From contig SVLW01000001.1 of the NCBI GenBank assembly GCA_015067705.1, positions 8,653-72,652 on the forward strand: a stretch of 64,000 bases of DNA, read 5' to 3'. Shown in pieces: positions 2,506-13,326 of this stretch. The notes under the pieces were generated by a model. The model was not told where the DNA came from and did not search any database. It worked only from the letters and a program-made list of their open reading frames with translations. A program made the position numbers and the translations under genes. Numbering within the stretch: position 1 is the first letter of the stretch; each line of letters opens with the position of its first letter. The stretch comes from Oscillospiraceae bacterium. GTDB lineage: Bacteria > Bacillota > Clostridia > Oscillospirales > QAMX01.

Positions 2506-3750
2506 ATGGACTTAGGTTCCCGTATACAGACCCTTCGAAAAAAGGCAGGCCTGTCGCAGGAAGCGCTGGCGGACACCCTGGGCATCAGCCGTCAGGCACT
2601 GAGCAAATGGGAGAGCGGCGCGTCGCTGCCCACGCTTGAAAATCTTTTACAGCTTTCAAAGGTATTTGAGATTTCCCTCGACGAACTCATCACCGGAGAA
2701 GTGCCCCCGCCCGCCGGAGAGAATGCCCCGGATACAGCGGTGCGGCAGGAAACCCTGGAGGCGCTTTTACAGCACATGGAGTCCGGCCGGCGAAAGTCCG
2801 GCATCTGGCTGACGGCGCTGTGTGCGGTCTTTGCTGCAGTCGCGCTGAGCGCCGGAATTTATGCTGGGATGCGCACGGCGTTTTTAGAGTCAGAGCTCCA
2901 GAACATGAACCAGCGCATTGTGGAACAAAATAATACCATCAATTCGATTTACCAGAATGTGCAGGCGCAGATGGAAGATACGGCCATGATGGAAGAACTG
3001 AGGAATCAGGACTACACCTTCCGTCATGAGGTCACCGGATATAACCGTGAACGAGATACCGTAAGTATCTCATTCACACTGACCCCTAAGAAATACCACG
3101 TAGATGATCAGGTAGAGTTCCTTCTGACACCAATAAGAGGCGCTGATTCTACCGAAGGGTATTTAGAAGAAATGATTGTGGTTCCGGCTGTACTCCAGGA
3201 CGAACGCTACATTGCAGAAACGGAGATTCCCATTGTAAACGTTATGGGTGTTTTTCTGCGCAGAACCTCCAAAGACGGCAACGTAACACAGGAGTTCCTC
3301 ACTCATGAGAGCAACATAGCTGAGTATTGGGTTCCCAGTCTCGAAGTAGAAAACTATATGTTTACATTTGAGAAAACCAGCGATAAGATCATTTTGTGGG
3401 GAAAGCCCTATGTGACAGTTCATCTTCCCAGTATGGATCCGCGCGGTTGGAACGCCAAGCTGGTATCCACTCTAACTTATGGAGATCAGGTGATCTATAC
3501 GGAAAGTATCGATCTGGACGAATGGCACAAGGAAGTGATGGACAATTCCACAAAAGGAATGGATCCCGAAGAGAAAAAAGACTTTTTAGAATCAAACATT
3601 CACGCCACTACGTGTGAATTCATAATGAACGACGAGTCTTACCGCGATATGGAACTGGATTTGATCGAGGGTGGAGAGCTCACCTGGACTTTCCAACTCA
3701 TCTACGACGACGGCGAGACCTATGAGGAAGAACTCTCCTGGCGCACTTAA
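2506..3750 (+). CDS. Membrane-anchored XRE-family HTH regulator with an uncharacterised extracytoplasmic domain
   Basis: The N-terminus LGSRIQTLRKKAGLSQEALADTLGISRQALSKWESG is a Cro/C1 HTH. A single TM helix follows (IWLTALCAVFAAVALSAGIYAG), then about 290 aa with no motif I recognise. AGGAGG lies 9 nt upstream of the ATG. Confidence 0.7.
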   Translation: MDLGSRIQTLRKKAGLSQEALADTLGISRQALSKWESGASLPTLENLLQLSKVFEISLDELITGEVPPPAGENAPDTAVRQETLEALLQHMESGRRKSGIWLTALCAVFAAVALSAGIYAGMRTAFLESELQNMNQRIVEQNNTINSIYQNVQAQMEDTAMMEELRNQDYTFRHEVTGYNRERDTVSISFTLTPKKYHVDDQVEFLLTPIRGADSTEGYLEEMIVVPAVLQDERYIAETEIPIVNVMGVFLRRTSKDGNVTQEFLTHESNIAEYWVPSLEVENYMFTFEKTSDKIILWGKPYVTVHLPSMDPRGWNAKLVSTLTYGDQVIYTESIDLDEWHKEVMDNSTKGMDPEEKKDFLESNIHATTCEFIMNDESYRDMELDLIEGGELTWTFQLIYDDGETYEEELSWRT

Positions 3751-3759
3751 TATCTGACG

Positions 3760-3790
3760 AATCCCCCGTCATCGGCGGGGGATTTTTTCT
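3760..3790 (+). terminator. Rho-independent terminator
   Basis: AATCCCCCG (3760-3768) pairs with CGGGGGATT (3776-3784), followed by a T-run. Confidence 0.8.
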
Positions 3791-3868
3791 TGCCCGCAGA
3801 ATGAGACACATAAATCCGCGCCGGGCCGCTATACTGGGTAGCAGCAGATGACGAAGGAGGCGGGCGGG

Positions 3869-4711
3869 ATGGTGGTCTATTTGGATGAGCTCCTGTTCTT
3901 AAATCTCTTCGTCAACTATTTCCTGCTGCTCTCCGCCGGGATGCTCTCAGGCACGAAGCTGCGGCGGGGCAGGATCTTCTGCGGGGCGCTTTTCGGCGCG
4001 GGGTATGCGTGTCTGGAGTTTTTCCCGGACTGTGCGCCGCTTTTCTCCCTCTGGGGAAAGGCGGCGGTGTCGGTGGGGATGTGCCTCATGGCGTATGGAT
4101 ATGACGGCGTGGGGCGGATGCTGCGGCGGACGCTGGGGTTTTATCTGGTGGGATTCCTCTTTGCGGGACTGATGCTGCTGCTCTTCCGGGGGAAGGGCGG
4201 CGCGGTGATGGCCTCCCTGGATACCGGGGTATTGCTGGCCGCGGCGGCAGGGGCGTATCTCCTGCTGACGCTTCTGCGGGGCACTCCGGCGCTGCAGGAG
4301 GAAAAACCGCCGCAGGCCGCCGTCACGCTGACGCTCTTTGGCAGCACCGTGACGCTGGCGGCACTGCTTGACACCGGCAACCGCCTGCGGGATCCCCTCA
4401 CCAATGACCGGGTGCTCATTGCAGAGCGAAGGCAGATTCAGGACATTTTCCCGCCGGGGCTGCGGCGGCATCTCGCGCTCTTCGGCGTGGCGGATGCGGC
4501 GGCGGCACTGCGTATTCTGGCGGCGGCGGGCTACGGCGCGGGATTCCGGCTGATCCCCTACTCCGCCCTTGGGACGCAGAACGGCCTGCTGCTGGCGCTG
4601 CGGCCCGACCGGGTGGAGGTGGACGGGCGGGAGCTCCGGGACGTACTGGTGGCGCTGACGGAGCAGGAGCTACAAAACGACACAGGCTGCAGCGCGATCT
4701 TAGGTGCATGA
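3869..4711 (+). CDS. spoIIGA: Sigma-E processing aspartic peptidase SpoIIGA
   Basis: Multi-pass TM N-terminal half. The C-terminal half carries the [13 protein letters not shown] (DTG) motif. It sits immediately upstream of sigE. ATG 3869 has GAAGGAGG 8 nt upstream, and the track start at 3848 is also possible. Confidence 0.85.
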
Positions 4712-4727
4712 GAAGGAGGAAAGGCAG

Positions 4728-5447
4728 ATGCGAATCGGAACTCTTTTAGGGAGACTGCGGGCATTCTTTCAGATCATTCGGGCAAGGCGGTACCGCCGGC
4801 CCGGCAGTATCTTCTATATCGGCGGGGCGGAGAGCCTGCCGCAGCCCTTGTCGCCGGAGGAGGAGCGCAGTTATCTGGCCCGCTACGGCGAGGCGGAGGT
4901 GCTGCAGATTTTCATTGAGCGGAATCTGCGTCTGGTGGTGTACATCGCCCGGAAGTTTGAGAACACCAATATTTCTATCGAGGATCTCATCTCCATCGGC
5001 ACCATCGGCCTCATCAAGGCCGCCAATACCTATAACCCCGAAAAAAGCATCAAATTCGCCACCTATGCCTCCCGCTGCATCGAAAATGAAATCCTCATGT
5101 TCCTCCGGAAAAATGCCAACCGCAAGCAGGAGATCTCCATTGACGAGCCCCTGAACACCGACGGCGACGGCAATGAGCTGCTGCTCTCGGACATTCTGGG
5201 CACGGAGCCGGACAGCGTGGTGCGGCCGCTGGAGGACGACGCCGACCGCCAGCTTCTGGCCCAGGCGCTCTCTCATCTGGGGGAGCGGGAGCGACTGATC
5301 ATCTCCCTGCGCTTCGGTCTGGGCGGCGTGCAGGAGCGCACGCAAAAGGAGGTGGCGGAGCTCATGGGCATCTCCCAGTCCTATATCTCTCGGCTGGAGA
5401 AAAAGATCCTGGCAAAGCTGCGGGCCGACATGGTGCGCATGATGTGA
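4728..5447 (+). CDS. sigE: Sporulation sigma factor E (pro-sigma-E)
   Basis: Pro-sequence plus [13 protein letters not shown], region 2 ([44 protein letters not shown]) and region 4 ([21 protein letters not shown]). ATG 4728 follows GGAGGAAAGG. The track start at 4704 is a GTG inside the spoIIGA 3' end. Confidence 0.9.
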
Positions 5448-5451
5448 AATC

Positions 5452-5500
5452 AACCGCCGGATTCGCGCGAGCTACGCGGATCCGGCGGTTTTTCTTTTTT
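5452..5500 (+). terminator. Rho-independent terminator after sigE
   Basis: AACCGCCGGA (5452-5461) pairs with TCCGGCGGTT (5481-5490), followed by TTTTCTTTTTT. Confidence 0.85.
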
Positions 5501-5540
5501 ATGGGACCGTGCTGTGCTATACTGAAGAGGAAAGATCTGC

Positions 5541-5567
5541 TGTAACATTTGGTTCATACCTTTCGTC
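5541..5567 (+). promoter_or_regulatory. ECF-type promoter candidate (TGTAAC-N17-CGTC)
   Basis: TGTAAC at 5541-5546 and CGTC at 5564-5567 are separated by 17 nt. The site lies about 45 nt upstream of the ECF sigma gene. It resembles the AAC / CGT(C/A) architecture of Bacillus SigX/SigM/SigW-class promoters, which are usually autoregulated. Confidence 0.5.
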
Positions 5568-5610
5568 TAATGATTGAACATCCGATCATCGATACTGCAG
5601 GAGGATGACA

Positions 5611-6135
5611 GTGCTGTTTTTACCAATGGAACCAGGGCTTCCGGATCTTGACAGGATCATGGAAGATTACGGTACGGGCTTACTCAGGCTTTGTACCCTA
5701 TATTTGAAAGACCATCATCTGGCGCAGGATGCGGTGCAGGAGACTTTTATCAAAGTCTATGCCAAGTATTCCTCCTTCCGCTCGGAATCCAGCGAAAAAA
5801 CCTGGATCACCCGGATCGCCATGAATGTCTGCCGGGATATGATGCGAAAGCGCGCCTATCGGGAGCGCCCGGAGGAATTTTCCGAATACATGGCCGCCGA
5901 TGCCAGCGGCACACCGGAGGAAAGCGCCATCGACCGGGACGAGAGCATCATGCTGCTGGACGCGATCCGCCGTCTGCCGGATATCTACCGACAGACGATC
6001 CTTCTATACTACTACAAAGGCTTCAAGGCCGATGAGATCGCAAAAATCCAGCATACCGCCCGGTCTACCGTCAACGTCCGGCTGAAGCGCGGGCGGGATA
6101 TGCTGCGTACCATGCTGAAGGACGACACGATTTGA
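5611..6135 (+). CDS. ECF (sigma-70 family group 4) RNA polymerase sigma factor
   Basis: Region 2 is AQDAVQETFIKVYAKYSSFRSESSEKTWITRIAMNVCRDMMRK. Region 4 is LPDIYRQTILLYYYKGFKADEIAKIQHTARSTVNVRLKRGRDML. There is no region 3. ATG 5605 abuts GGAGG with zero spacing, so GTG 5611 (6-nt spacing) is preferred. Confidence 0.85.
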   Translation: MLFLPMEPGLPDLDRIMEDYGTGLLRLCTLYLKDHHLAQDAVQETFIKVYAKYSSFRSESSEKTWITRIAMNVCRDMMRKRAYRERPEEFSEYMAADASGTPEESAIDRDESIMLLDAIRRLPDIYRQTILLYYYKGFKADEIAKIQHTARSTVNVRLKRGRDMLRTMLKDDTI

Positions 6136-6154
6136 GAGGGGTTCGGAGGAACAT

Positions 6155-9100
6155 ATGAGTAAACTGGATCAATTAAGAGAGATCATCGAGGATCATTTAC
6201 GGAATGTCACCATGACCGAATCCGATCGCGCGGCCGTGCGCCGCAGAATCGCAGAGCAGGCGGTGGACAAACGAAAAAATCCCGGATACGGCTGGTATCT
6301 GGCCTCGGCGGGCATGGCGGCGGCCTGTATATTGGCGGTGGTGTTGGTATGGCCGTCGCTGCCCCGTGCTGGAGAGATGGCCCCGGATGCGGAGAGCGAC
6401 CGCCTGGTGACGGAATCCACCGGGGACGGCATCGGTGCAGCGCAGGAGCGGCCCATGGACTCCGCCGCTGCGACCACGGACGGCATGTCGTTTGATGTTC
6501 TGGCTGCAGCCAGAACATCCGGCGTCGTGACGCCGGACACCGCATTTTTCATCGACGTGACCGGCGGGACGATGGCAGCGGACGAACTAGAAGCGCGAAT
6601 CACCATGGAGCCCGCGGTGGAATTCACCGTGGTGCCGGAAACGGAGACCCGCTATTGCCTGACGCCGGCAGAGCCTCTGCCGAACGGCGAGGTAGTGCGG
6701 CTGTCCATTGCAAAAGACGACGGTTCCTCTCTGTCCTGGGCCTTCCAGACAGAGGCATCCTTACAGATTTTATCCACGCTGCCGGGCAATGAAGCCACCA
6801 GTGTTTCTTTGGATTACGGCAGTATGCCTGCAGAGGACGGCACCGTGCCTGTAGAGACCGGCATTGAGATCAATTTCTCCCGCATTGTGTCGGATGGCGC
6901 GGCGGAACACTTCACCATCTCTCCGGAGACGCCCGGCGCGTTCCGGTATTACGGCAAGACGCTGGCCTTCGTGCCGGAGGAGCCTCTGCGTGCCGATACG
7001 GTATACACCGTCACGGTGGGCGCGGGCCTGACCGCGGATTCCGGCGAGGTGCTGAACGATGACTATACCTTCTCCTTCCGCACGTCGGAATATTATTATT
7101 CCGCAGGGCAGTATTTCACCCTGGCAAACCGTGTGACGGAGAGCTATCTCCCCGGAGATCCGGTGTCCATAGGTGTCACGGCCTCCGAGGATCTGACAAC
7201 GGCACAGGTGAAGCTGTGGCGGGTGAATAGCGCAGAAGAATATCTGTCGCTGGCCGAGGAAATGATCGTCGGCGTGCATCCCACCCTGGGCCGTCTGGGT
7301 GACGGCAGAGTGGAGACGAGTGGACTCCCCCTCCTGGAGGAATTTGACGCAGAGATTCTCAGAACCGAGACCTCTTACTGGTACGGCGGCGTCAGCTATG
7401 TCCTGCTGCCGGAGCTTGAGGTCGGCTGGTATCTGGCGGAGCTTTCCGCCGCGGATCATGAGGGCGGCGTCCATACCATTCAGAAGCTCATTCAGGTGCA
7501 CCCCCTGGCAATTTATTATCAGAGCATTGGCGACGAAACCATCGTTTGGGTGAATGATACGACAAGCGGCAGAACCCTTTCCGGCGTCAGTGTCCAGCTC
7601 ACGGCAGACGACGTGACGGAGGCAGTTATGACCGACGCCAGCGGCCTGGCGAAGCTGCACGGCTGTACGGACGCGCGGGGCTATGCCCGACTGGAAGTGA
7701 AGAGCGATGCAGGCGTGTACGCCGATCTGGTGGAGACTGCTGCGGCAGTCGAGACCGATGTAGCCCAGGACTTCCGGCGCTTTGTCTACCTGGATCGGGC
7801 GGTGTACCAGCCCACGGACACCGTGCGGTTCTGGGGAATATTACAGCCCATCCGGGGCGCGGCGCTGCCGGAACGATTGGACGTCATGCTGTCCGGCTCC
7901 GGTGAGCCTGTGAAGGTGGGAACCGTGGAAGTGGCTGCCGACGGCAGCTTTACCGGCAGCGTCTCCTTTGAAAACCGCATTTCCGGCTATACCGTGCTGT
8001 CCTTCTGGCAGGACGGAGTGTACTATGCCGGCGCCCAGTATGAAGTGATGGCCTATCAGAAGCCCGCGTATCTTCTGGAGGCGGCGTTCGACCAGCCCTA
8101 TTACCGCCGGAATGAGGAAATGACGGTGCATGTCTCCGCCAGTTTCTATGACGGCACGCCCGCCGCGGGCCTGGGCGTCAGTGTATCGGCGGACACGGGC
8201 TATTCCCTGACCATGGATGAAAACGGCCAGGGAGAAACCACCATAGAGCCCCGCATTTACCAGGACGACTGGCGGCCCACCTCTCAGCACATCACCGCCA
8301 TGAATACCGGCTCTGAGAACGTGTATGTCTCCGCTTATGACGCGGCCTATTATTTCCCCAGTGACTATATGCTGACGGCGGAGGCCGTGGAGCCCGGCGC
8401 TCTGCAGGTGGAACTCCTTGCCAATGCCATTGATTTTACAAAGGTTCCGGACTATCTGGATGGCGGCCTGATGGATCAGGATATGCTGCGGGGCGACGCT
8501 GCGGTCATCCACGGCACGGCGGAGCTCTGGGGATGCTGGTACGAAAAGGTGGAGACCGGCCGCGAATATGACCCCATCAATAAAGTCAGCGTGCCGACCT
8601 ATGACTATATCCTCCACGAGGATCTGCTCTCCGAAGAGCAGTTTACCACGGATAACGGGCGATCTCTCACCGGCGGATACCAGCCGCAGGCAGACGATCC
8701 CTATACCTATTACCGCATGGAGCTCCGCTACGACACGCCGGATGGGCAGAATTTCTCCACGGAGCTTGCCCTCACCACCCATTTCTATCCGGGCAATTAC
8801 TATTCCGGCTATCATCTGGTGGAACAGCATATCGACCGGCGTGATCTGGGGCTTGGGGAAACGGCCCGGCTGCAGCTATACAGCACCGATGCCGTATCGG
8901 ATGGACAGCTTCTGGTGATCCCCACCACAGACCGGATGCTGGGTTATTCCTTTGCCGAACCGGAGGATGTTTCCGTCACCTTCACGGCGGAGATGATCCC
9001 CAATGTGTCGCTTTTCTGCGCGTATTTCGACGGACGGCATATTTATGCGGTGCAGGAATACCGGCTTTTCTATGACCGGACGGAGCGGGAACTGGCAGTA

Positions 9101-11200
9101 CGGGTGGAGACCGATGACAGCAGCTTCGAGCCCGGCGAGACCGTCAGCGGACGCGTCATAGTGACGGACAAAGACGGAACTCCGGTGCGCGCCGCATACG
9201 CCATGGGCGTGGTGGACGAAGCGGTGTTTGCCATATCGGAACAGGTGGTGGATCCCCTAAGTGCGCTTTATGCCACGCGCTTCTATCCCGCGCCGGTGCG
9301 CTATACTTCCTATGTGGATAAAGACCTGATGCTCGTCTATGCCGAGGGCGGCGGCGGGGACGGTTATGCCGAGGCCCGCGCCGACTTTGCCGACACGGCT
9401 GCCTTCCTCACCGGCACCACGAACGGGGACGGCACGGCAGAGTTCTCCTTCCCCCTCCCCGACAATCTCACTTCCTGGCGTCTGACTGCGGCGGCCGTCA
9501 CGGAGGACGGCGAGGCAGGCGCGGCAAAAGAACACATCTCCGTTTCCCTCCCCTTCTTCCTGCATCTGGTCATGAATGACACCCTTACGGCAGGCGACGA
9601 CGTATCCCTTTCCGCCCGGGTGTATGGCGCAGCGGATGGAACCGCGGTGCAGTACACGGTGTATCTGGGGAAAGAGGTCATTGCGAAGGCAGGCGGAGTC
9701 GCCGGAGAGCACTGCTTCCTGCATCTGGGGCAGCTGCCCACCGGCAGTCATGAAATCACGGTATCGGCAAAGGCGGGCGACCGGACAGACGGCATCCGCC
9801 GCACCATCACCGTACAGGAAAGCCGACACGAACTGATGCAGGCCCAGTCCGGCCTTTTGACGGACGGCGTTGATCTGGCGGCGGTGCGCTATCCCGTTAC
9901 GCTGCTGCTCTCCGATGCCGAACAAGCGGCGTCCATGGAGACGCTTACGACGCTTCTCTCCATGAACGGCCGACGACTGGATCAGACTCTTGCGGTCTAT
10001 ACGGCAAAGTCCCAGCTTCTGGCACTGGATCCTGAGAATCCCCTGTCGGAAGAGCTGCCCGATCTATCGGGATACCAGCACTATTCCGGCGGCATGAAGC
10101 TTTTCTCCTACGGCGATCCGGACGTGATGCTCACGTCTCTGTCTCTGCTCACGGCAGCAGAGCATCTGGACAGCGCTGCCGCCCGGGAGTATCTCTATCG
10201 GGTGCTTTACGACCGGGAATCCTCCCGCTATGAGGTGGCCGCGGCTTACTTAGGTCTTGCGGCGCTGCGGGAGCCGGTGCTGAGTGATCTGGCGGTGCTT
10301 CTGTCCGATCCGGGCTTTACGGCGGAGGAACAACTGATTCTGGCGGAGGCGCTGGCCATCCTGGGCGACCAGACAGGCGCCACGGCACTTTATGAGACGC
10401 TGGTGCTGCCGGGGCTGACCCGGACGGATACCTGGTGTTATATAGAGAATGGTAACCGGGAGGCACAGTATGCCGCCACCTCACACGCCGCCATTCTGGC
10501 GGTCCTGCTGGATCGGGAGGAGGCGGACGGCATGATCCGGTATCTCCAGGAAGAGGCCAGTCAGGAAACGCTGGCATCCTTCCCGCTGATCCTCCGGGCC
10601 AAGAGAGCGCCGATTGCGCCCTCGGATGCCGGGATCCAATATGTCTATAGCGGAGAAACAATCACCCGTTCCCTGCGGGAGACCCCGGTGATCGTGCTGG
10701 AATATGACGAAACGGCACTGAAATCCGCCAATTTCCGCATCACTTCCGGCGAGATCGCCTATACGGCGCTCTATATGGGCGGCATGGACACTCTGGCGGA
10801 TACCGCCGGTGAACGCATCCGCGCGGCCATTTCGGGCCCCGATACTGCGGCGGCGGGCGGCAATTCCGTGACGCTCACCACTACGGTGGAGTTTTCTGAG
10901 GATTGTCCGGGAGACAGCTATCTGCTGGACATCGTGCTGCCCTCCGGTACCCGTTATGCGGGATATGAATACCGGCACAACGCAGGATACACGCTCCTCG
11001 CACAGGAGGGCAGCCGACTGACCTTCCTGCTGCACCGCAGACCCGATGAGCGTTCCGGCACCGCCCGCAACAGCTTCTCCGTACCGGTATCGGTGCGGGC
11101 CGTATTGCCGGGCAGCTATATTCTGGAAGAACCGGTTGTCCGCGGCGTGGAGTCCGGCATCACTGCCATCGGACAGCGCCGGAATCTGACGATCTCATGA
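6155..11200 (+). CDS. Single-pass membrane protein: anti-sigma-like N-terminus fused to Ig-like (SbsA/Big_5-type) domains and a full alpha-2-macroglobulin-family ectodomain without a thioester
   Basis: It starts 19 nt after the sigma stop, preceded by GGAGGA.
- Residues 1-45 are cytoplasmic and helical, followed by a TM helix (WYLASAGMAAACILAVVLVW).
- Two Ig-like repeats are present (EINFSRIVSDGAAEHFTISPETPGAFRYYGKTLAFVPEEPLRADTVYTVTV).
- MG-domain hallmark YLDRAVYQPTDTVRFWG lies at nt ~7787-7840.
- An A2M_N_2-like stretch, FEPGETVSGRVIVTDKDGTPVRAAYAMGVVDEAVFAI, lies at nt ~9124-9240.
- A2M core DTAAFLTGTTNGDGTAEFSFPLPDNLTSWRLTAAAV lies at nt ~9390-9500.
- The C-terminal MG10-like motif is LLDIVLPSGTRYAGYE.
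- No CxEQ motif occurs anywhere. The expected position reads NGRRLDQT (nt ~9955-9993). Confidence 0.75.
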   Translation: MSKLDQLREIIEDHLRNVTMTESDRAAVRRRIAEQAVDKRKNPGYGWYLASAGMAAACILAVVLVWPSLPRAGEMAPDAESDRLVTESTGDGIGAAQERPMDSAAATTDGMSFDVLAAARTSGVVTPDTAFFIDVTGGTMAADELEARITMEPAVEFTVVPETETRYCLTPAEPLPNGEVVRLSIAKDDGSSLSWAFQTEASLQILSTLPGNEATSVSLDYGSMPAEDGTVPVETGIEINFSRIVSDGAAEHFTISPETPGAFRYYGKTLAFVPEEPLRADTVYTVTVGAGLTADSGEVLNDDYTFSFRTSEYYYSAGQYFTLANRVTESYLPGDPVSIGVTASEDLTTAQVKLWRVNSAEEYLSLAEEMIVGVHPTLGRLGDGRVETSGLPLLEEFDAEILRTETSYWYGGVSYVLLPELEVGWYLAELSAADHEGGVHTIQKLIQVHPLAIYYQSIGDETIVWVNDTTSGRTLSGVSVQLTADDVTEAVMTDASGLAKLHGCTDARGYARLEVKSDAGVYADLVETAAAVETDVAQDFRRFVYLDRAVYQPTDTVRFWGILQPIRGAALPERLDVMLSGSGEPVKVGTVEVAADGSFTGSVSFENRISGYTVLSFWQDGVYYAGAQYEVMAYQKPAYLLEAAFDQPYYRRNEEMTVHVSASFYDGTPAAGLGVSVSADTGYSLTMDENGQGETTIEPRIYQDDWRPTSQHITAMNTGSENVYVSAYDAAYYFPSDYMLTAEAVEPGALQVELLANAIDFTKVPDYLDGGLMDQDMLRGDAAVIHGTAELWGCWYEKVETGREYDPINKVSVPTYDYILHEDLLSEEQFTTDNGRSLTGGYQPQADDPYTYYRMELRYDTPDGQNFSTELALTTHFYPGNYYSGYHLVEQHIDRRDLGLGETARLQLYSTDAVSDGQLLVIPTTDRMLGYSFAEPEDVSVTFTAEMIPNVSLFCAYFDGRHIYAVQEYRLFYDRTERELAVRVETDDSSFEPGETVSGRVIVTDKDGTPVRAAYAMGVVDEAVFAISEQVVDPLSALYATRFYPAPVRYTSYVDKDLMLVYAEGGGGDGYAEARADFADTAAFLTGTTNGDGTAEFSFPLPDNLTSWRLTAAAVTEDGEAGAAKEHISVSLPFFLHLVMNDTLTAGDDVSLSARVYGAADGTAVQYTVYLGKEVIAKAGGVAGEHCFLHLGQLPTGSHEITVSAKAGDRTDGIRRTITVQESRHELMQAQSGLLTDGVDLAAVRYPVTLLLSDAEQAASMETLTTLLSMNGRRLDQTLAVYTAKSQLLALDPENPLSEELPDLSGYQHYSGGMKLFSYGDPDVMLTSLSLLTAAEHLDSAAAREYLYRVLYDRESSRYEVAAAYLGLAALREPVLSDLAVLLSDPGFTAEEQLILAEALAILGDQTGATALYETLVLPGLTRTDTWCYIENGNREAQYAATSHAAILAVLLDREEADGMIRYLQEEASQETLASFPLILRAKRAPIAPSDAGIQYVYSGETITRSLRETPVIVLEYDETALKSANFRITSGEIAYTALYMGGMDTLADTAGERIRAAISGPDTAAAGGNSVTLTTTVEFSEDCPGDSYLLDIVLPSGTRYAGYEYRHNAGYTLLAQEGSRLTFLLHRRPDERSGTARNSFSVPVSVRAVLPGSYILEEPVVRGVESGITAIGQRRNLTIS

Positions 11201-12159
11201 AACGGCGTCTGATGATCTGGGGCGCGGCATGGATGCTGCTCTTCTCCGCCTGCGCCCCCGCCGAAGTACCCACACCGGAGGCGCCGCCTGTGGAAGCGGT
11301 GGCGGAGAATCCTCCGGCGACAGAACCAGACGGAACGGAGATCCCCTGCGTACACACGGACTTTCCTCTGGTGGCGCGGCAGCTTTCTGCCGCATCCGCG
11401 CCGGTTTTGTCCGGCACGCTCTGCGGCGCGATCCTGCCGCACTATGCGCCCGCCATGCAGATGGGCGCGGATCTCCTGGCGGCACGGGAGACCCCGCCAG
11501 ATACCATCGTGATTCTGGCACCCAACCATGCCGGGGATGGCGCGCCTGTCCAGATCTGCGGCGCGTCCTATGTATGGGACGGCGGCGGCATGGCGGGTGA
11601 TCCTGCCCTTGCTGCAGCACTGGCGGAGGCGCTGTCGCTGTCGCCGGACGACCGGGCCGCAGGAGAGGACTGGTCGGCATCGCTCCACGTGCCGTATCTC
11701 TCCGCCTATTTCCCGGAGGCGCAGATCGTCACGATCCTGCTGTCCCGGGGCGCCGATGCCGCGGCACTGCAGACGCTGGGCGAAAGCCTTGCAGCGCTTG
11801 CGGCGGCGCGGGAGCTTTTCGTTCTGAGTTCCGTAGATTTCTCCCATGAACAGACACCCGACACCGCCGCCCGCTGTGACCGGGAGACCCAGCGGCTCCT
11901 TCTGGACGGCGAGCCCAGCGCCCTGCTGCCCCTGGGGAATGACTATCTGGACTCTCCGGAGAGTGCGGCGGTGCTGATGTACTATGCCGATGCCTGTGGG
12001 TTGACGCTGATGCTGCAGGATTCTCACATCGAGCATTTTATTGAGGACGGCAGGCAGAAAACCGGCAGTTATTATGCCTATGCGCTTATAAAAGCCGACG
12101 GCGATGTTCCCGCCGACGGGGCCGGGCAGGCGGCGGACGATCAAAGCGCACCAGAATGA
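11197..12159 (+). CDS. Lipoprotein with a Memo / AmmeMemoRadiSam-protein-B-like (class III extradiol dioxygenase fold) domain
   Basis: Signal peptide with lipobox MKRRLMIWGAAWMLLFSAC. The stretches GAILPHYAPA, IVILAPNHAGDG, LHVPYLSAYFP and SSVDFSHEQ parallel the Memo motifs PHAGY, GPNH, EHS..QLPFL and SSDLSHY. The ATG overlaps the upstream stop (ATGA at 11197-11200). Confidence 0.55.
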   Translation: MKRRLMIWGAAWMLLFSACAPAEVPTPEAPPVEAVAENPPATEPDGTEIPCVHTDFPLVARQLSAASAPVLSGTLCGAILPHYAPAMQMGADLLAARETPPDTIVILAPNHAGDGAPVQICGASYVWDGGGMAGDPALAAALAEALSLSPDDRAAGEDWSASLHVPYLSAYFPEAQIVTILLSRGADAAALQTLGESLAALAAARELFVLSSVDFSHEQTPDTAARCDRETQRLLLDGEPSALLPLGNDYLDSPESAAVLMYYADACGLTLMLQDSHIEHFIEDGRQKTGSYYAYALIKADGDVPADGAGQAADDQSAPE

Positions 12160-12376
12160 TATCGTCCCCGATCTTCTCGATCTGGCACCAGGGCACCACG
12201 TATTCCTCTCCCTTGGAAAAGAGACAGGACAGCCGCCAGGGCCCCGGCACCACGATGGCCACCAGTCGTCCGGTGTGGATATCCAGCTCTACATCCCCCA
12301 CATATCCCATGCGGCATCCGTCGCATACGTTCACGACTTCCCTGCACTGTAATTCTGCAATTCTGATCGGTGTCAT
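12086..12376 (-). CDS. ylmC: YlmC/YmxH-family sporulation protein (PRC-barrel)
   Basis: MTPIRIAELQCREVVNVCDGCRMGYVGDVELDIHTGRLVAIVVPG...VVPWCQIEKIGDDIILV matches the YlmC/YmxH pattern. ATG 12376 is preceded by AGAGGGGGA. The longer track ORF has no RBS. Confidence 0.8.
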   Translation of the reverse strand: MTPIRIAELQCREVVNVCDGCRMGYVGDVELDIHTGRLVAIVVPGPWRLSCLFSKGEEYVVPWCQIEKIGDDIILVRFDRPPPARPRRREHRRRLL

Positions 12377-12492
12377 ACAGATCCCCCTCTTTGTGCTTGT
12401 ACCGTATGTATATGCCAAAGGGCGGGGATTTTTTCTTGCCTGTCCTGAAATGGCGGCAAAAATGCCCCGTCCCAAAAGGGACGGGGCACAGG

Positions 12493-13326
12493 TCACGAGG
12501 CGCTTTCCGCTGTCAGCCAGGGATTATTGGGATTGGGATCCGTGGGATCCCAGGTACGGTTGGGGCTCTCGGGGTCGATATAGATGGGTTCCGGCTTTCC
12601 CAGAGGGCCGGGATCCTCGGATTCATAGAGGATCACCGTCGTTCCAAGGGCGCAGTAGTCATAGATCCACTTGGCGTCCGCCGCGGACAGGCGGATACAG
12701 CCCGCGGATACCGTGAGACCCAGTTTGTTATATTCCTCATAGAGCAGACTGTCGCCGCTCTTTTTCCGATACGGAACAGAATGGAACAGGATATGATCGA
12801 CGATCCGCGTGGCATACTGGCCATAGGTGCCGCCGAATAAGGGCCGCCACTCATCCCGGTTGATGGTACGATACTCCCCGAGAGGCGTTTTCTTCCCCAC
12901 GGAGCAGACCATGGCGCGCACCGGCACGGTATACGCCCCGGCCTCATCCCGCTCGTACACCGTCACGGTGTTTTTCAGGGCATTGACATGGATCTGACAG
13001 GCCTCGGGATCGTCGGCCAGGGATTCCCAATGGGCGAGGAGTTCCTCCTCGGTGGGCGGTTCCGGCGCGGGTTCCTCTTCCGGTTCCTGTGCTTCTGCGG
13101 ACGTGGACTCCGGCGCAGACGCCGGGGGCGTATAGGCTTCATCCCCCGGCGCCGTGGCGCCGGCAATGGGGGCATCCTCCGCGGTCAGGGACAGGGCGGC
13201 CACGGGATCCACCGCAATGTGCTCCACTTCTTTCCGGGAACTCTCCGGACGGGCAATCAGAAGCACCAGCGCCAGAAGCACCGCAAGTCCCAGAAGATGT
13301 AAACACCGAATGGTACGCTCGTACAT
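12493..13326 (-). CDS. L,D-transpeptidase (YkuD domain), membrane anchored
   Basis: N-terminal TM helix, a Pro/Glu-rich linker, and a catalytic region HILFHSVPY...LGLTVSAGCIRL (H...SxGC[IV]R motif). ATG 13326 follows AAGGAGGG. Confidence 0.85.
   Translation of the reverse strand: MYERTIRCLHLLGLAVLLALVLLIARPESSRKEVEHIAVDPVAALSLTAEDAPIAGATAPGDEAYTPPASAPESTSAEAQEPEEEPAPEPPTEEELLAHWESLADDPEACQIHVNALKNTVTVYERDEAGAYTVPVRAMVCSVGKKTPLGEYRTINRDEWRPLFGGTYGQYATRIVDHILFHSVPYRKKSGDSLLYEEYNKLGLTVSAGCIRLSAADAKWIYDYCALGTTVILYESEDPGPLGKPEPIYIDPESPNRTWDPTDPNPNNPWLTAESAS

What the first reader, a model, noticed from the sequence alone, without database searches (positions are those of the whole stretch)
5541..12159. 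ECF sigma operon whose anti-sigma-position gene encodes a membrane-anchored alpha-2-macroglobulin-type protease trap
**What the sequence shows**
- An ECF-type promoter (TGTAAC-N17-CGTC, 5541-5567) precedes a 175-aa ECF sigma gene.
- Nineteen nt later comes a 1681-aa ORF.
- A third ORF follows, overlapping the 1681-aa ORF's stop through an ATGA start/stop overlap.
- The 1681-aa ORF's first ~70 residues look like the short N-terminus typical of clostridial anti-sigma factors: a cytoplasmic helix followed by a single TM helix.
- The other ~1600 residues carry the full domain series of bacterial alpha-2-macroglobulins: Ig-like domains, MG domains with the DRxxYxPxxxV hallmark, an A2M core with PDNLTSWRL, and an MG10-like C-terminus.

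**Established background**
- Anti-sigma factors sit directly downstream of their ECF sigma.
- They are often inactivated by regulated proteolysis of the ectodomain.
- A2M proteins change conformation when a protease cuts their bait region.

**Inference**
- The protein may couple attack by a foreign protease to release of the sigma factor. That would be a protease-sensing envelope stress or defence switch.
- I know of no described A2M/anti-sigma fusion.
Basis: partly seen in the sequence, partly recalled or inferred. Interest (0 to 1): 0.8.

Follow-up and report, generated by a model that had tools for sequence, protein, structure and literature searches.

The report
Protease-inhibitor anti-sigma factor operon
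A gut Clostridia bacterium has a three-gene operon in which the membrane protein that should hold an ECF sigma factor in check carries a huge alpha-2-macroglobulin-like (protease-trap) outer domain, and relatives carry a serpin on the same inner module, which suggests (untested) a switch that turns genes on when outside proteases attack.

Summary
Window 5541-12159 holds an ECF-type promoter, an ECF sigma gene, a 1681-aa gene and a Memo-like lipoprotein gene.

**The 1681-aa protein**
- It starts with two short cytoplasmic helices, one TM helix and a disordered linker.
- About 1570 aa of alpha-2-macroglobulin (A2M) architecture follow. Foldseek's top hit is E. coli ECAM (E 4e-51).
- It has no CxEQ thioester.

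**Support for the anti-sigma reading (comparative only)**
- Among 70 assessable homologous loci, an ECF sigma lies directly upstream almost only where the A2M-like protein has a cytoplasmic tail of 30 aa or more (24/3/1/42, Fisher p 2e-14).
- At least six unrelated tail types each pair with their own sigma type. One has a zinc-finger HxxxCxxC motif.
- The promoter motif is conserved in 12 of 13 related operons.

**New result**
- The window's N-terminal module, with a sister sigma (46% identical) and the same promoter, also occurs fused to serpins.
- Serpins are an unrelated class of cleavage-triggered protease inhibitors.
- This independently favours protease attack as the signal.

**Not shown**
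- Sigma binding, protease trapping and regulated proteolysis are all untested.

I found no description of such fusions. Verdict: a new variant of ECF/anti-sigma signalling, of high interest.

The parts
5452..5500 (+). Intrinsic terminator of the upstream spoIIGA-sigE operon. It insulates the ECF operon from upstream transcription.
   Evidence: 16-bp stem with 11 GC pairs, followed by TTTCTTTTTT; sequence read.
5541..5569 (+). ECF-type promoter, probably autoregulated: -35 TGTAAC (5541-5546), 17-nt spacer, -10 CGTCTA (5564-5569).
   Evidence: Single match in the window against 0.03 expected. The same motif lies upstream of the sigma in 12 of 13 class-A and serpin-type operons, against a background of 0.02 per 450 nt. 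That this sigma uses it is inferred.
5605..6135 (+). ECF (group 4) sigma factor gene. The start is probably GTG 5611 (174 aa).
   Evidence: Sigma70_r2 and Sigma70_r4_2 with no region 3. TIGR02937 sigma70-ECF scores 95.5 bits against a cut-off of 42.9, and no equivalog cut-off is reached.
6155..11200 (+). 1681-aa single-pass membrane protein: a putative anti-sigma factor with an A2M-like ectodomain.
6155..6289 (+). Cytoplasmic two-helix module (aa 1-45; consensus MSKLxxLKxIVDxHLxxxxMTExQKxxVRRRI). This is the putative sigma-binding part.
   Evidence: Helices at 2-16 and 22-40. Conserved in class-A homologues. Present only where a sigma gene lies upstream. A profile search of 1.84e9 proteins finds it on A2M-like proteins and on serpins. 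Binding to sigma was not tested.
6293..6358 (+). Transmembrane helix (aa 47-68).
   Evidence: Hydropathy and the AF2 helix at 47-68.
6359..6478 (+). Disordered juxtamembrane linker (aa 69-108). It is a candidate site-1 cleavage zone and a spacer through the cell wall.
   Evidence: pLDDT below 50 for aa 66-108. The role is inferred.
6827..7084 (+). Big_5 Ig-like domain (aa 225-310), inside an N-terminal series of beta-sandwich domains (aa 111-520).
   Evidence: Pfam Big_5 1e-9; beta-sandwich secondary structure.
7793..7825 (+). MG2 hallmark motif DRAVYQPTDTV (aa 547-557).
   Evidence: Sequence. D547, R548, Y551, P553 and D555 are invariant or nearly so in the family. Weak MG2 Pfam match at aa 543-573.
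8834..9232 (+). A2M bait-region domain (the MG6 part; aa 894-1026).
   Evidence: Pfam A2M_BRD 1.7e-10.
9287..9370 (+). Exposed disordered loop at the bait position (aa 1045-1072, PAPVRYTSYVDKDLMLVYAEGGGGDGYA). It contains an AEGGG motif that is invariant among the 15 closest homologues.
   Evidence: pLDDT below 50 at model residues 546-573. The loop sits between A2M_BRD and the A2M/MG7 domain. Its length varies and it carries long insertions in distant members. Cleavage was not tested.
9419..9631 (+). A2M family domain (MG7; aa 1089-1159), including PDNLTSWRL.
   Evidence: Pfam A2M 7.7e-12.
9917..10606 (+). Alpha-helical thioester-domain-like region (aa 1255-1484). At the position where I expected the thioester motif, the CxEQ is replaced by NGRRLDQ (aa 1271-1277, nt 9965-9985).
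   Evidence: Helical bundle at model residues 756-985. No CxEQ at that position in any of 28 family members. Overall fold matches to A2M/TEP structures. The placement of the motif position is my reading, not a structural alignment.
10631..11197 (+). C-terminal beta-sandwich (aa 1493-1681), MG10/receptor-domain-like.
   Evidence: Beta strands at model residues 994-1181. The profile aligns colinearly with the C-terminus of YfhM. Weak bMG10 hits appear only in distant members P0029 and P0030.
11197..12159 (+). Memo-like lipoprotein gene (320 aa; signal peptide with LFSAC lipobox), translationally coupled by ATGA.
   Evidence: Pfam Memo scores 37.6 bits against a cut-off of 27; TIGR04336 scores 60 bits against 26. 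A homologue lies directly downstream of the A2M-like gene in 47 of 77 assessable loci, with or without a sigma. The lipobox is read from the sequence.

Best explanation
**What it is**
- The region is a self-contained operon that probably activates itself: ECF sigma, membrane anti-sigma, Memo-like lipoprotein.
- The 1681-aa protein is the anti-sigma factor.
- Its two cytoplasmic helices (aa 1-45) would hold the sigma at the membrane.
- A single TM helix and a roughly 40-aa flexible linker connect them to a thioester-less A2M-type protease trap on the outer face of the membrane.

**How it most likely works (inferred)**
1. An extracellular protease cuts the exposed bait-position loop (aa 1045-1072) or the juxtamembrane linker.
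2. The spent or shed ectodomain then exposes the membrane stub to intramembrane (site-2) proteolysis.
3. The sigma is released and transcribes its own promoter (5541-5569).
4. That replaces the single-use inhibitor, together with its Memo-like partner, in proportion to its consumption.

**Shown versus inferred**
- Shown: gene order, domain architecture, A2M fold, missing thioester, promoter conservation, co-occurrence of the tail with a sigma gene, and the same module on serpins.
- Inferred: sigma binding, protease trapping, the cleavage steps and the regulon.

**Sub-probabilities**
- The protein is the cognate anti-sigma: about 0.8.
- The trigger is proteolysis of the ectodomain or linker by foreign proteases: about 0.55.
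For: **Architecture**
- Pfam and NCBIfam domains.
- AF2 models with pLDDT 83.5 and 77.3.
- Foldseek top hits are ECAM 5a42 (E 3.9e-51), Salmonella A2M 4u48 and activated ECAM 4ziq (TM 0.51).

**Tail and sigma go together**
- Of 70 assessable loci, 24 have both a tail of 30 aa or more and an upstream sigma.
- Three have the tail only, one has a sigma only, and 42 have neither (OR 336, p 2e-14).

**Repeated pairing with different tails**
- The ectodomain occurs with distinct tails (classes A, B, C and D, plus P0022, P0029 and the HxxxCxxC-bearing P0030).
- Each tail has its own sigma clade, and stop and start codons often overlap.
- These forms are scattered among lipoprotein or plain-anchor forms in a rough ectodomain tree.

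**Modularity of the tails**
- A class-B-like tail also heads a 982-aa protein of another kind, encoded next to a divergent ECF sigma (L029).
- The class-D tail weakly matches DUF4179. DUF4179 is a recognised Firmicutes anti-sigma type (PMC7826278).

**Promoter**
- It is unique in the window.
- It is conserved in 12 of 13 operons, including ATTT directly after the -35 hexamer in the window and all four serpin-linked operons.

**Serpin parallel**
- A profile of the class-A tail, searched against 1.84e9 proteins, finds only A2M-like proteins of about 1640-1690 aa, short fragments, a few multi-stretch matches I took to be spurious, and two serpins of 503 and 535 aa.
- Every serpin fusion examined sits directly after an ECF sigma.
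- That sigma is 46% identical to the window's and belongs to the sister clade.
- A second tail-sigma type (class D) is likewise shared between an A2M-like protein (L069) and a serpin (L091b).

**Background**
- Thioester-less MagD still traps a protease (PMC5764988).
Against: - No test of binding between the sigma and the N-terminus was possible, because no complex prediction tool was available.
- The tail matches no curated anti-sigma domain. It has only two helices, fewer than the class I anti-sigma domain as I recall it.
- The thioester is absent.
- The bait-position loop is short and carries an AEGGG motif that is invariant among the 15 closest homologues. From memory, broad-spectrum A2M baits are long and variable, so this is unlike them.
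- Three loci have long tails but no sigma (L026, L045, L060).
- The Fisher test ignores shared ancestry, and the trees are rough neighbour-joining trees.
- No site-1 or site-2 protease was identified.
- The regulon is unknown beyond the operon itself.
- All sources are uncultured or unstudied genomes, and no expression data were examined.
Confidence: 0.6

Rival explanations
1. The protein is the anti-sigma factor, but the signal is not protease attack. The A2M-like ectodomain would be a large beta-sandwich surface protein that binds a ligand such as cell wall, a polysaccharide or a host glycoprotein. It could also report envelope damage, in the way RsgI anti-sigma factors use carbohydrate-binding modules or RsiV binds lysozyme (both recalled from memory).
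For: - No thioester is present.
- The bait-position loop is conserved rather than variable.
- The function of type II bacterial A2Ms is debated, and MagD protects against peptidoglycan-targeting T6SS effectors (PMC12663445).
- The conserved partner is a Memo-like lipoprotein of unknown role.
- Ig-like Big_5 domains are common in adhesins (the adhesin link is from memory).
Against: - The same tail, sigma and promoter module sits on serpins. The property serpins share with A2M is cleavage-triggered protease inhibition, not ligand binding.
- The whole A2M domain series is retained, including a disordered loop at the bait position and a TED-like domain.
Confidence: 0.2
2. The 1681-aa protein is not an anti-sigma factor. 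It would simply be the main target gene, co-transcribed with an ECF sigma that is controlled in some other way. The cytoplasmic tail would be only a membrane anchor or a sorting signal.
For: - No known anti-sigma domain is detected.
- Three loci have long tails without a sigma.
- Some ECF groups have no identified anti-sigma factor (PMC7826278).
Against: - Family members without a sigma manage with a lipobox or a short anchor, so the 30-45 aa tail is not needed for anchoring.
- The tail appears essentially only with a sigma.
- Tail type tracks sigma type.
- One tail type carries the canonical HxxxCxxC motif.
- The gene sits where ECF anti-sigma genes usually sit (from memory), often with overlapping stop and start codons.
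Confidence: 0.1
3. This is a quality-control or stoichiometry loop rather than an environmental sensor. The sigma would be released whenever the large ectodomain misfolds or is turned over by the cell's own proteases. That would keep the surface level of the A2M-like protein constant whether or not foreign proteases are present.
For: - The only promoter match in the 64-kb window drives the operon itself.
- The conserved core in sigma-less relatives is just the A2M-like gene plus the Memo-like gene.
- The invariant AEGGG in the loop could be a site for a dedicated endogenous protease (speculation).
Against: - This does not explain why serpins, of all ectodomains, share the module.
- It overlaps with the main explanation, differing only in which protease acts.
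Confidence: 0.1

Closest known systems
Membrane-bound ECF anti-sigma factors that are themselves the receptor and are removed by regulated intramembrane proteolysis (B. subtilis/C. difficile RsiV-SigV with lysozyme; RsiP-SigP, PMC8844934; RsgI-SigI with carbohydrate-binding ectodomains, PMC6056542)
   Same: - Sigma gene first, with the single-pass anti-sigma gene directly after it.
- A short cytoplasmic N-terminus, one TM helix and a functional extracytoplasmic sensor domain.
- A promoter that probably drives its own operon.
   Different: - The ectodomain is about 1570 aa of A2M architecture (or a serpin in sister operons), not a lysozyme-, beta-lactam- or sugar-binding module.
- The tail matches no curated anti-sigma model.
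- Proteolytic activation is inferred here, not shown.
- Details of RsiV and RsgI are recalled from memory.
Bacterial type I alpha-2-macroglobulins (E. coli ECAM/YfhM, Salmonella A2M; PDB 5a42, 4ziq, 4u48)
   Same: - Best structural matches (E 4e-51 to 6e-48).
- Colinear MG domains, bait-region domain, A2M/MG7 domain, helical TED-like domain and C-terminal beta-sandwich.
- Anchored to the outer face of the cytoplasmic membrane.
   Different: - About 15% sequence identity, and only E of about 1e-7 by profile search.
- No CxEQ thioester.
- Anchored by a TM helix with a cytoplasmic tail instead of a lipobox.
- An extra N-terminal series of Big_5/Ig-like domains.
- Found in a Gram-positive lineage.
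- The partner gene is Memo-like. From memory, the partner of type I A2Ms is pbpC.
Type II (thioester-less) bacterial A2M, MagD of Pseudomonas aeruginosa (PMC3735191, PMC5764988, PMC12663445)
   Same: - Lacks the thioester yet has the A2M fold.
- Membrane-associated and encoded in an operon with accessory proteins.
- MagD traps a protease non-covalently, which shows that a trap without a thioester is possible.
- Pseudomonas A2M-family proteins of 1518-1524 aa are distant sequence hits (E 1e-17 to 1e-21).
   Different: - No MagA, B, C, E or F-type partners were seen next to it. None of the neighbouring genes scanned carries such a name, and no Mag-specific search was run.
- MagD is not fused to an anti-sigma-like tail and is not preceded by a sigma gene.
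- MagD's mag operon is regulated by GacA (PMC12663445).
Bacterial serpins of gut and cellulolytic Clostridia (cellulosomal serpin PinA of C. thermocellum, as cited in PMC12484212)
   Same: Extracytoplasmic suicide-substrate protease inhibitors from related Clostridia lineages. The sister operons found here encode serpin domains with Pfam E of 1e-83 to 1e-87.
   Different: - Known bacterial serpins are secreted, lipoprotein or dockerin-borne.
- The ones found here carry the class-A or class-D anti-sigma-like tail and follow an ECF sigma.
- I found no description of this arrangement.
Short (class II, CnrY-type) anti-sigma domains
   Same: A cytoplasmic sigma-binding part of only about 45 residues followed by one TM helix. 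This resemblance is recalled from memory and is a lead only.
   Different: No sequence or structural comparison was made here. From memory, CnrY belongs to Proteobacteria and senses metals through the partner protein CnrX.

Membership tests
ECF (group 4) sigma-70 factors | Sigma-70 regions 2 and 4 only, about 170-200 aa. | tested here: met
   Sigma70_r2 at aa 19-84 and Sigma70_r4_2 at aa 116-166, with no region 3 hit. TIGR02937 scores 95.5 bits against a cut-off of 42.9.
ECF (group 4) sigma-70 factors | Membership of a named ECF equivalog such as SigV, SigW, SigM or SigX. | tested here: not met
   The best match is PRK09415 at 136.9 bits against a cut-off of 198. All equivalog models score below their cut-offs.
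ECF (group 4) sigma-70 factors | An autoregulated promoter with an AAC-type -35 and a CGT-type -10. | tested here: inconclusive
   The motif is present, unique in the window and conserved in 12 of 13 operons. Use by this sigma was not tested.
Membrane-bound ECF anti-sigma factors | Encoded directly downstream of the sigma and co-transcribed with it. | tested here: met
   19-nt gap with no terminator between the genes. The adjacency is conserved in 24 loci, often with overlapping stop and start codons.
Membrane-bound ECF anti-sigma factors | N-terminal cytoplasmic part, then a single TM helix, then an extracytoplasmic domain. | tested here: met
   Helices at 2-16 and 22-40, TM helix at 47-68, and basic residues before the TM helix.
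Membrane-bound ECF anti-sigma factors | A recognisable anti-sigma domain (class I ASD/zf-HC2, RskA, DUF4179 N-terminus and so on). | tested here: not met
   No Pfam hit for aa 1-100 even at E up to 10. Other family members do carry HxxxCxxC (P0030) or a tail with a weak DUF4179 match (L069).
Membrane-bound ECF anti-sigma factors | Physically binds and inhibits its sigma. | not testable with these tools
   Only single-chain structure prediction was available. The indirect evidence is the co-occurrence and matching of tail type with sigma type.
Alpha-2-macroglobulin / thioester-containing protein superfamily | A series of macroglobulin (MG) domains with a bait-region domain and the A2M (MG7) domain. 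| tested here: met
   Pfam A2M, A2M_BRD and MG4 score above their cut-offs; MG2 and bMG3 score below. Foldseek gives E 4e-51 to ECAM, and also matches CD109, TEP1, C3 and C5.
Alpha-2-macroglobulin / thioester-containing protein superfamily | An internal thioester (CxEQ) in the TED domain. | tested here: not met
   NGRRLDQ sits at the position where I expected the motif. No member of the 28-sequence family alignment has CxEQ there.
Alpha-2-macroglobulin / thioester-containing protein superfamily | An exposed, protease-sensitive bait region whose cleavage triggers a conformational change. | tested here: inconclusive
   A 28-aa loop with pLDDT below 50 lies at the expected position. It is short and contains an AEGGG motif that is invariant among the 15 closest homologues. 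Cleavage was not tested.
Type II bacterial A2M (MagD-like) | Thioester-less A2M encoded in a mag-type operon with MagA, B, C, E and F partners. | tested here: inconclusive
   The thioester-less criterion is met. No mag-type partner is evident: the downstream gene is Memo-like and the other neighbours scanned are unrelated. No Mag-specific search was run.
Memo / AmmeMemoRadiSam system protein B | The Memo fold signature scores above curated cut-offs. | tested here: met
   PF01875 scores 37.6 bits against 27; TIGR04336 scores 60 bits against 26.
Memo / AmmeMemoRadiSam system protein B | Encoded with AMMECR1 and radical-SAM partners, and cytoplasmic (as I recall the system). | tested here: not met
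   No such Pfam families appear in the adjacent genes scanned. The protein has a lipoprotein signal peptide.

The most novel reading that the evidence does not exclude
Clostridia have a previously unrecognised class of 'suicide-inhibitor' anti-sigma factors. The extracytoplasmic sensor is itself a single-use, cleavage-triggered protease inhibitor, either an A2M-like trap or a serpin. Consumption of the inhibitor by an attacking protease would be transduced directly into ECF sigma release and re-synthesis of the inhibitor. This would be the first ECF pathway in which a foreign protease is both the signal and the target. It would also be the first functional handle on A2M-like proteins in Gram-positive bacteria.
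Probability: 0.5. Interest if true: 0.85.

Novelty: new variant of a known kind. Interest (0 to 1): 0.8.

Why it matters
- ECF sigma/anti-sigma pairs are a main route by which bacteria sense the outside world, yet for most of them the signal is unknown.
- Here the sensor domain names its own signal. Two unrelated families of bait-type protease inhibitor sit on the same sigma-controlling module.
- If true, this gives a directly testable model for how gut Clostridia detect and counter host, dietary or competitor proteases.
- It would also explain how a stoichiometric, single-use inhibitor is replenished on demand.
- It gives a first physiological context for the large, unstudied A2M-like proteins of Oscillospiraceae. 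These include cultured Anaerotruncus, Marasmitruncus, Acetanaerobacterium and Angelakisella, although the copies recovered from those cultured genera lack the sigma.
- The compact sigma, tail and promoter module could serve as a protease-responsive genetic switch for engineering.

Tried and rejected
1. Pfam on the N-terminal 100 aa of four tail classes at E up to 10 gave nothing useful. The only hits were a weak DUF4179 match for class D and a weak zf-HC2 match for P0030.
2. The word-indexed protein search with the 70-aa N-terminal alignment returned only two fragments, so it was wasted. The exhaustive profile search succeeded instead.
3. The search for related loci with the 28-sequence alignment failed because no stretch was conserved enough. 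It worked with the 15 closest sequences.
4. I looked for a natural sigma/anti-sigma fusion to fold as one chain.
   - P0086 looked like one, but it is a frameshift product with a garbled region 4.
   - The structure tool returns no contacts in any case, so I did not use it.
5. The PDB sequence search with the Memo-like protein gave only spurious DARPin matches.
6. PADLOC gave no hits for any of the three proteins or for the serpin fusion, so this is not a catalogued phage-defence system.
7. One literature query was badly framed and uninformative.
8. I considered that the CGEQ in P0011 might be a thioester. I rejected it because it is not at the TED position in the alignment.
9. I considered that the 545-579 aa sigma-domain ORFs in L051 and L067 might be regulators of the neighbouring lipoprotein-type A2M gene. 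In L067 the ORF lies more than 1 kb away with another gene in between, so I did not count it as a pair.

Full report
**1. What is in the window**

- After the sigE gene (4704-5447) comes a strong intrinsic terminator at 5452-5500.
- TGTAAC-N17-CGTCTA follows at 5541-5569.
- The sigma ORF is 5605-6135. GTG 5611 has the better spacing to GGAGG and matches how homologues start.
- After a 19-nt gap, a 1681-aa ORF runs 6155-11200.
- A 320-aa ORF at 11197-12159 overlaps its stop by ATGA.
- No convincing terminator lies inside 6135-12159.

Pfam and NCBIfam give these assignments:
- Sigma: Sigma70_r2 plus Sigma70_r4_2, and sigma70-ECF. No named equivalog cut-off is reached.
- Large protein: A2M, A2M_BRD, Big_5 and MG4, plus sub-threshold MG2 and bMG3.
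- Third protein: Memo and AmmeMemoRadiSam-B. It also has a lipoprotein signal peptide.

Context:
- The neighbours are spoIIGA-sigE upstream. Downstream on the other strand are a PRC-barrel (ylmC-like) gene, an L,D-transpeptidase gene and a U32 peptidase gene.
- The large protein is identical to MBE6934880.1 from a Ruminococcaceae/Oscillospiraceae MAG, where it is annotated 'hypothetical protein'.

**2. The large protein is a real but divergent A2M**

- A family profile reaches E. coli and Salmonella YfhM, C5, CD109 and human A2M only at E 1e-7 to 1e-5, but colinearly.
- An AF2 model of aa 500-1681 (pLDDT 83.5, pTM 0.72) matches ECAM (5a42, E 3.9e-51), Salmonella A2M, activated ECAM (4ziq, TM 0.51), CD109, TEP1 and C3/C5.
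- The model has a 28-residue disordered loop (aa 1045-1072) between the bait-region domain and MG7.
- It also has a helical TED-like domain (aa 1255-1484) and a C-terminal beta-sandwich.
- The thioester is missing. NGRRLDQ stands where I expected CxEQ, and none of 28 family members has CxEQ there.
- The protein therefore resembles 'type II' thioester-less bacterial A2Ms such as MagD. MagD still traps a protease non-covalently (PMC5764988), and its physiological role is debated (PMC12663445).
- The bait-position loop carries AEGGG. This motif is invariant in the 15 closest homologues. More distant members have long insertions in the loop.
- The AF2 model of aa 1-520 gives helices at 2-16 and 22-40, a TM helix at 47-68, a disordered linker at 69-108, and then beta-sandwich domains.

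**3. Is it the anti-sigma factor? Comparative evidence**

- A scan of one genome per species returned 80 homologous loci. They are mostly Oscillospiraceae and Eubacteriales and include cultured Anaerotruncus, Marasmitruncus, Acetanaerobacterium and Angelakisella.
- I called ORFs in these loci and searched them with an iterated sigma HMM.
- The ectodomain is found with three kinds of N-terminus:
  - a lipoprotein signal peptide;
  - a short TM anchor;
  - a 30-96 aa cytoplasmic tail followed by a TM helix.
- An ECF sigma gene lies directly upstream essentially only in the third case. The counts are 24 tail with sigma, 3 tail only, 1 sigma only and 42 neither (Fisher p 2e-14). This test is not corrected for phylogeny.

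The tails fall into unrelated sequence classes:

| Class | Tail consensus or feature | Where found |
|---|---|---|
| A | MSKLxxLKxIVDxHL..MTExQKxxVRRRI | the window and 8 genome loci |
| B | MKKEELSDAMxEIDEDIIEEA | 8 loci |
| C | MKFRDLLxLNKD.. | 4 loci |
| D | distinct tail | L069 |
| others | distinct tails; P0030 has HLEDCEPC | P0022, P0029, P0030 |

- HLEDCEPC in P0030 is the zinc-binding anti-sigma HxxxCxxC motif.
- P0022, P0029 and P0030 each have a sigma whose stop overlaps the start of the A2M-like gene.
- Sigma clades match tail classes.
- In a rough ectodomain tree, the sigma-linked forms are interspersed with sigma-less forms. This suggests repeated gain or loss of the regulatory module on one effector scaffold.
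- A class-B-like tail also heads a 982-aa protein of a different kind, encoded next to a divergent ECF sigma in L029.
- The class-D tail weakly matches DUF4179. DUF4179 is a recognised Firmicutes anti-sigma type (PMC7826278).
- None of this proves binding, and the window's tail matches no curated anti-sigma model.
- Even so, the pattern is what a cognate sigma/anti-sigma pair predicts. It is hard to explain if the tail were only an anchor.

**4. The promoter**

- TGWAAY-N17-CGTCWA occurs once in the 64-kb window, against 0.03 expected.
- In 1.6 Mb of fetched loci it occurs 7 times. Five of those lie just upstream of class-A sigma genes.
- A relaxed form is found upstream of the sigma in 12 of 13 class-A and serpin-type operons, against a background of 0.02 per 450 nt.
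- Even the ATTT after the -35 hexamer is shared between the window and the serpin-linked operons.
- This supports an ECF promoter that drives its own operon. No other copy exists in the window, so the regulon beyond the operon is unknown.

**5. The unexpected result: the same module on serpins**

- I searched a profile of the 47-aa class-A cytoplasmic tail against 1.84 billion representative proteins.
- The hits were A2M-like proteins of about 1640-1690 aa, short fragments, a few multi-stretch matches I took to be spurious, and two proteins of 503 and 535 aa.
- Those two proteins consist of the tail, a TM helix, a low-complexity linker and a full serpin domain (Pfam E 1e-83 and 6e-87).
- Further members came from a homology search (P0081, P0082, P0087).
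- Every one examined sits directly after an ECF sigma, and three of the four have overlapping stop and start codons.
- The L085 sigma is 46% identical to the window's.
- The serpin-linked sigmas form the sister clade of the class-A A2M-linked sigmas and use the same promoter motif.
- Locus L091 has two sigma-serpin pairs in tandem.
  - The second pair uses the class-D sigma and tail type, which is otherwise seen on an A2M-like protein (L069).
  - A third serpin in that locus has only a plain anchor.
- As with the A2M-like family, other serpins of the group are lipoproteins without a tail (P0084, P0085).
- So two different sigma/tail modules are each joined to two structurally unrelated ectodomains. 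The property those ectodomains share is stoichiometric, cleavage-triggered protease inhibition.
- This is the strongest available argument that the signal is protease attack.

**6. Mechanism proposed (steps marked)**

- Shown: the architecture, topology, adjacency, promoter conservation and module sharing.
- Inferred:
  - (a) Helices 1-2 sequester the sigma.
  - (b) A foreign protease cuts the bait-position loop or the disordered juxtamembrane linker.
  - (c) The reacted or shed ectodomain makes the stub a substrate for a site-2 protease, as in other ECF pathways (PMC8844934 for RsiP).
  - (d) The freed sigma transcribes the operon, replacing a single-use inhibitor in step with its consumption.
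- The Memo-like lipoprotein is a conserved partner of the A2M-like protein with or without a sigma (47 of 77 loci). It therefore belongs to the effector side of the system. Its role is unknown.

**7. Rivals**

- The protein is an anti-sigma whose ectodomain senses something other than proteases (confidence 0.2).
- The protein is only a co-transcribed target and not an anti-sigma (0.1).
- The system is an internal turnover or quality-control loop (0.1).
- The serpin parallel argues against the first rival. The tail/sigma correlation argues against the second.

**8. Comparison with what is known, and novelty**

- The logic (ECF sigma, single-pass anti-sigma that is itself the receptor, regulated proteolysis) is established, for example RsiV, RsiP and RsgI.
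- The fold is that of bacterial A2Ms.
- What I could not find described is an anti-sigma factor whose sensor is an A2M-like protein or a serpin.
  - Full-text searches gave nothing relevant.
  - The main text of the ECF reclassification paper does not mention macroglobulin, A2M or MG2. Its supplements were not available.
  - Databases name these proteins hypothetical, Ig-like domain-containing or serpin family.
- I rate this a new variant of a known kind.

**9. Limits**

- Everything here is comparative and structural prediction.
- The trees are neighbour-joining trees on MAFFT alignments.
- Start codons were chosen by a simple ribosome-binding-site rule.
- The statistics ignore shared ancestry.
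- Three loci with long tails but no sigma remain unexplained (L026, L045, L060).

Noticed in passing
L085:4474-6512; L086:4477-6608; L089/L090:about 3475-5533; L091:3478-5383: ECF sigma genes followed directly by serpins. Each serpin carries the window-type (class A) cytoplasmic tail, a TM helix and a low-complexity linker. These operons use a sister sigma clade and the same TGTCAY-N17-CGTCTAA promoter.
   Followed up: yes
L091:3478-9383: Two sigma-serpin pairs lie in tandem, one with a class-A tail and one with a class-D tail. An IS1595-type transposase gene and a third serpin with only a plain membrane anchor follow. This looks like a small serpin expansion island.
   Followed up: partly
window 9341-9355 (aa 1063-1067): An AEGGG motif is invariant among the 15 closest homologues and sits inside the disordered bait-position loop. 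More distant members have Gly-rich variants and long insertions there. A conserved sequence in a 'bait' is odd and might be the site for one particular protease.
   Followed up: partly
L026:9430-9630; L045:2177-2345; L055:443-610; L060:9647-9750: Four A2M-like proteins have long cytoplasmic tails. These are acidic and proline-rich in L045 and L055, Gln/Ser/Asp-rich in L026, and made of basic amphipathic repeats in L060. None has an ECF sigma upstream, although L055 has too little upstream sequence to judge. They may have other cytoplasmic partners.
   Followed up: no
L029:6086-9576 (minus strand): An ECF sigma gene is transcribed divergently from a lipoprotein-type A2M-like gene. On its own strand it is followed by a 982-aa protein with a class-B-like tail (..LEGLDENLINETAE..), a TM helix and a different ectodomain. 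This shows the tails are modular.
   Followed up: partly
L051:7901-9538; L067:6998-8737: ORFs of 545-579 aa with an N-terminal sigma-70 r2/r4-like part and a long C-terminal extension lie upstream of lipoprotein-type A2M-like genes. A lipoprotein-like gene precedes them. Domains were not checked with Pfam.
   Followed up: no
window 3848-5447 and 12086-12496; L001, L002, L003: In the window and its three closest relatives, the three-gene operon sits between spoIIGA-sigE and a ylmC-like PRC-barrel gene. From memory, sigG often follows sigE at this position. In more distant class-A loci (L004-L010) the flanks differ, so the operon behaves as an independent unit.
   Followed up: partly
P0086 (351 aa, ENA contig): This looks like a sigma/anti-sigma fusion protein. 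It is actually a frameshifted read-through: region 4 of the sigma is garbled before the serpin-type tail begins. It is probably an assembly or sequencing error.
   Followed up: yes
model of window aa 500-1681 (m22a5d7641f0f): The AF2 model superposes better on protease-activated ECAM and human A2M (TM 0.48-0.51) than on the native forms (0.30-0.34). This may be a modelling bias or may reflect a compact resting state in a thioester-less protein.
   Followed up: no
window 2506-3750: This 414-aa protein has an N-terminal HTH_3 (XRE-type) DNA-binding domain, an apparent membrane segment and a large C-terminal domain of unknown type. It lies just upstream of spoIIGA and may be a membrane-tethered transcription regulator.
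   Followed up: no
L081:3280-9137 (farmland soil metagenome): This is a distant member of the A2M-like family with a roughly 96-aa tail carrying HLEDCEPC, directly after an ECF sigma. It has no Memo-like gene downstream. The architecture is therefore not confined to gut Clostridia.
   Followed up: partly
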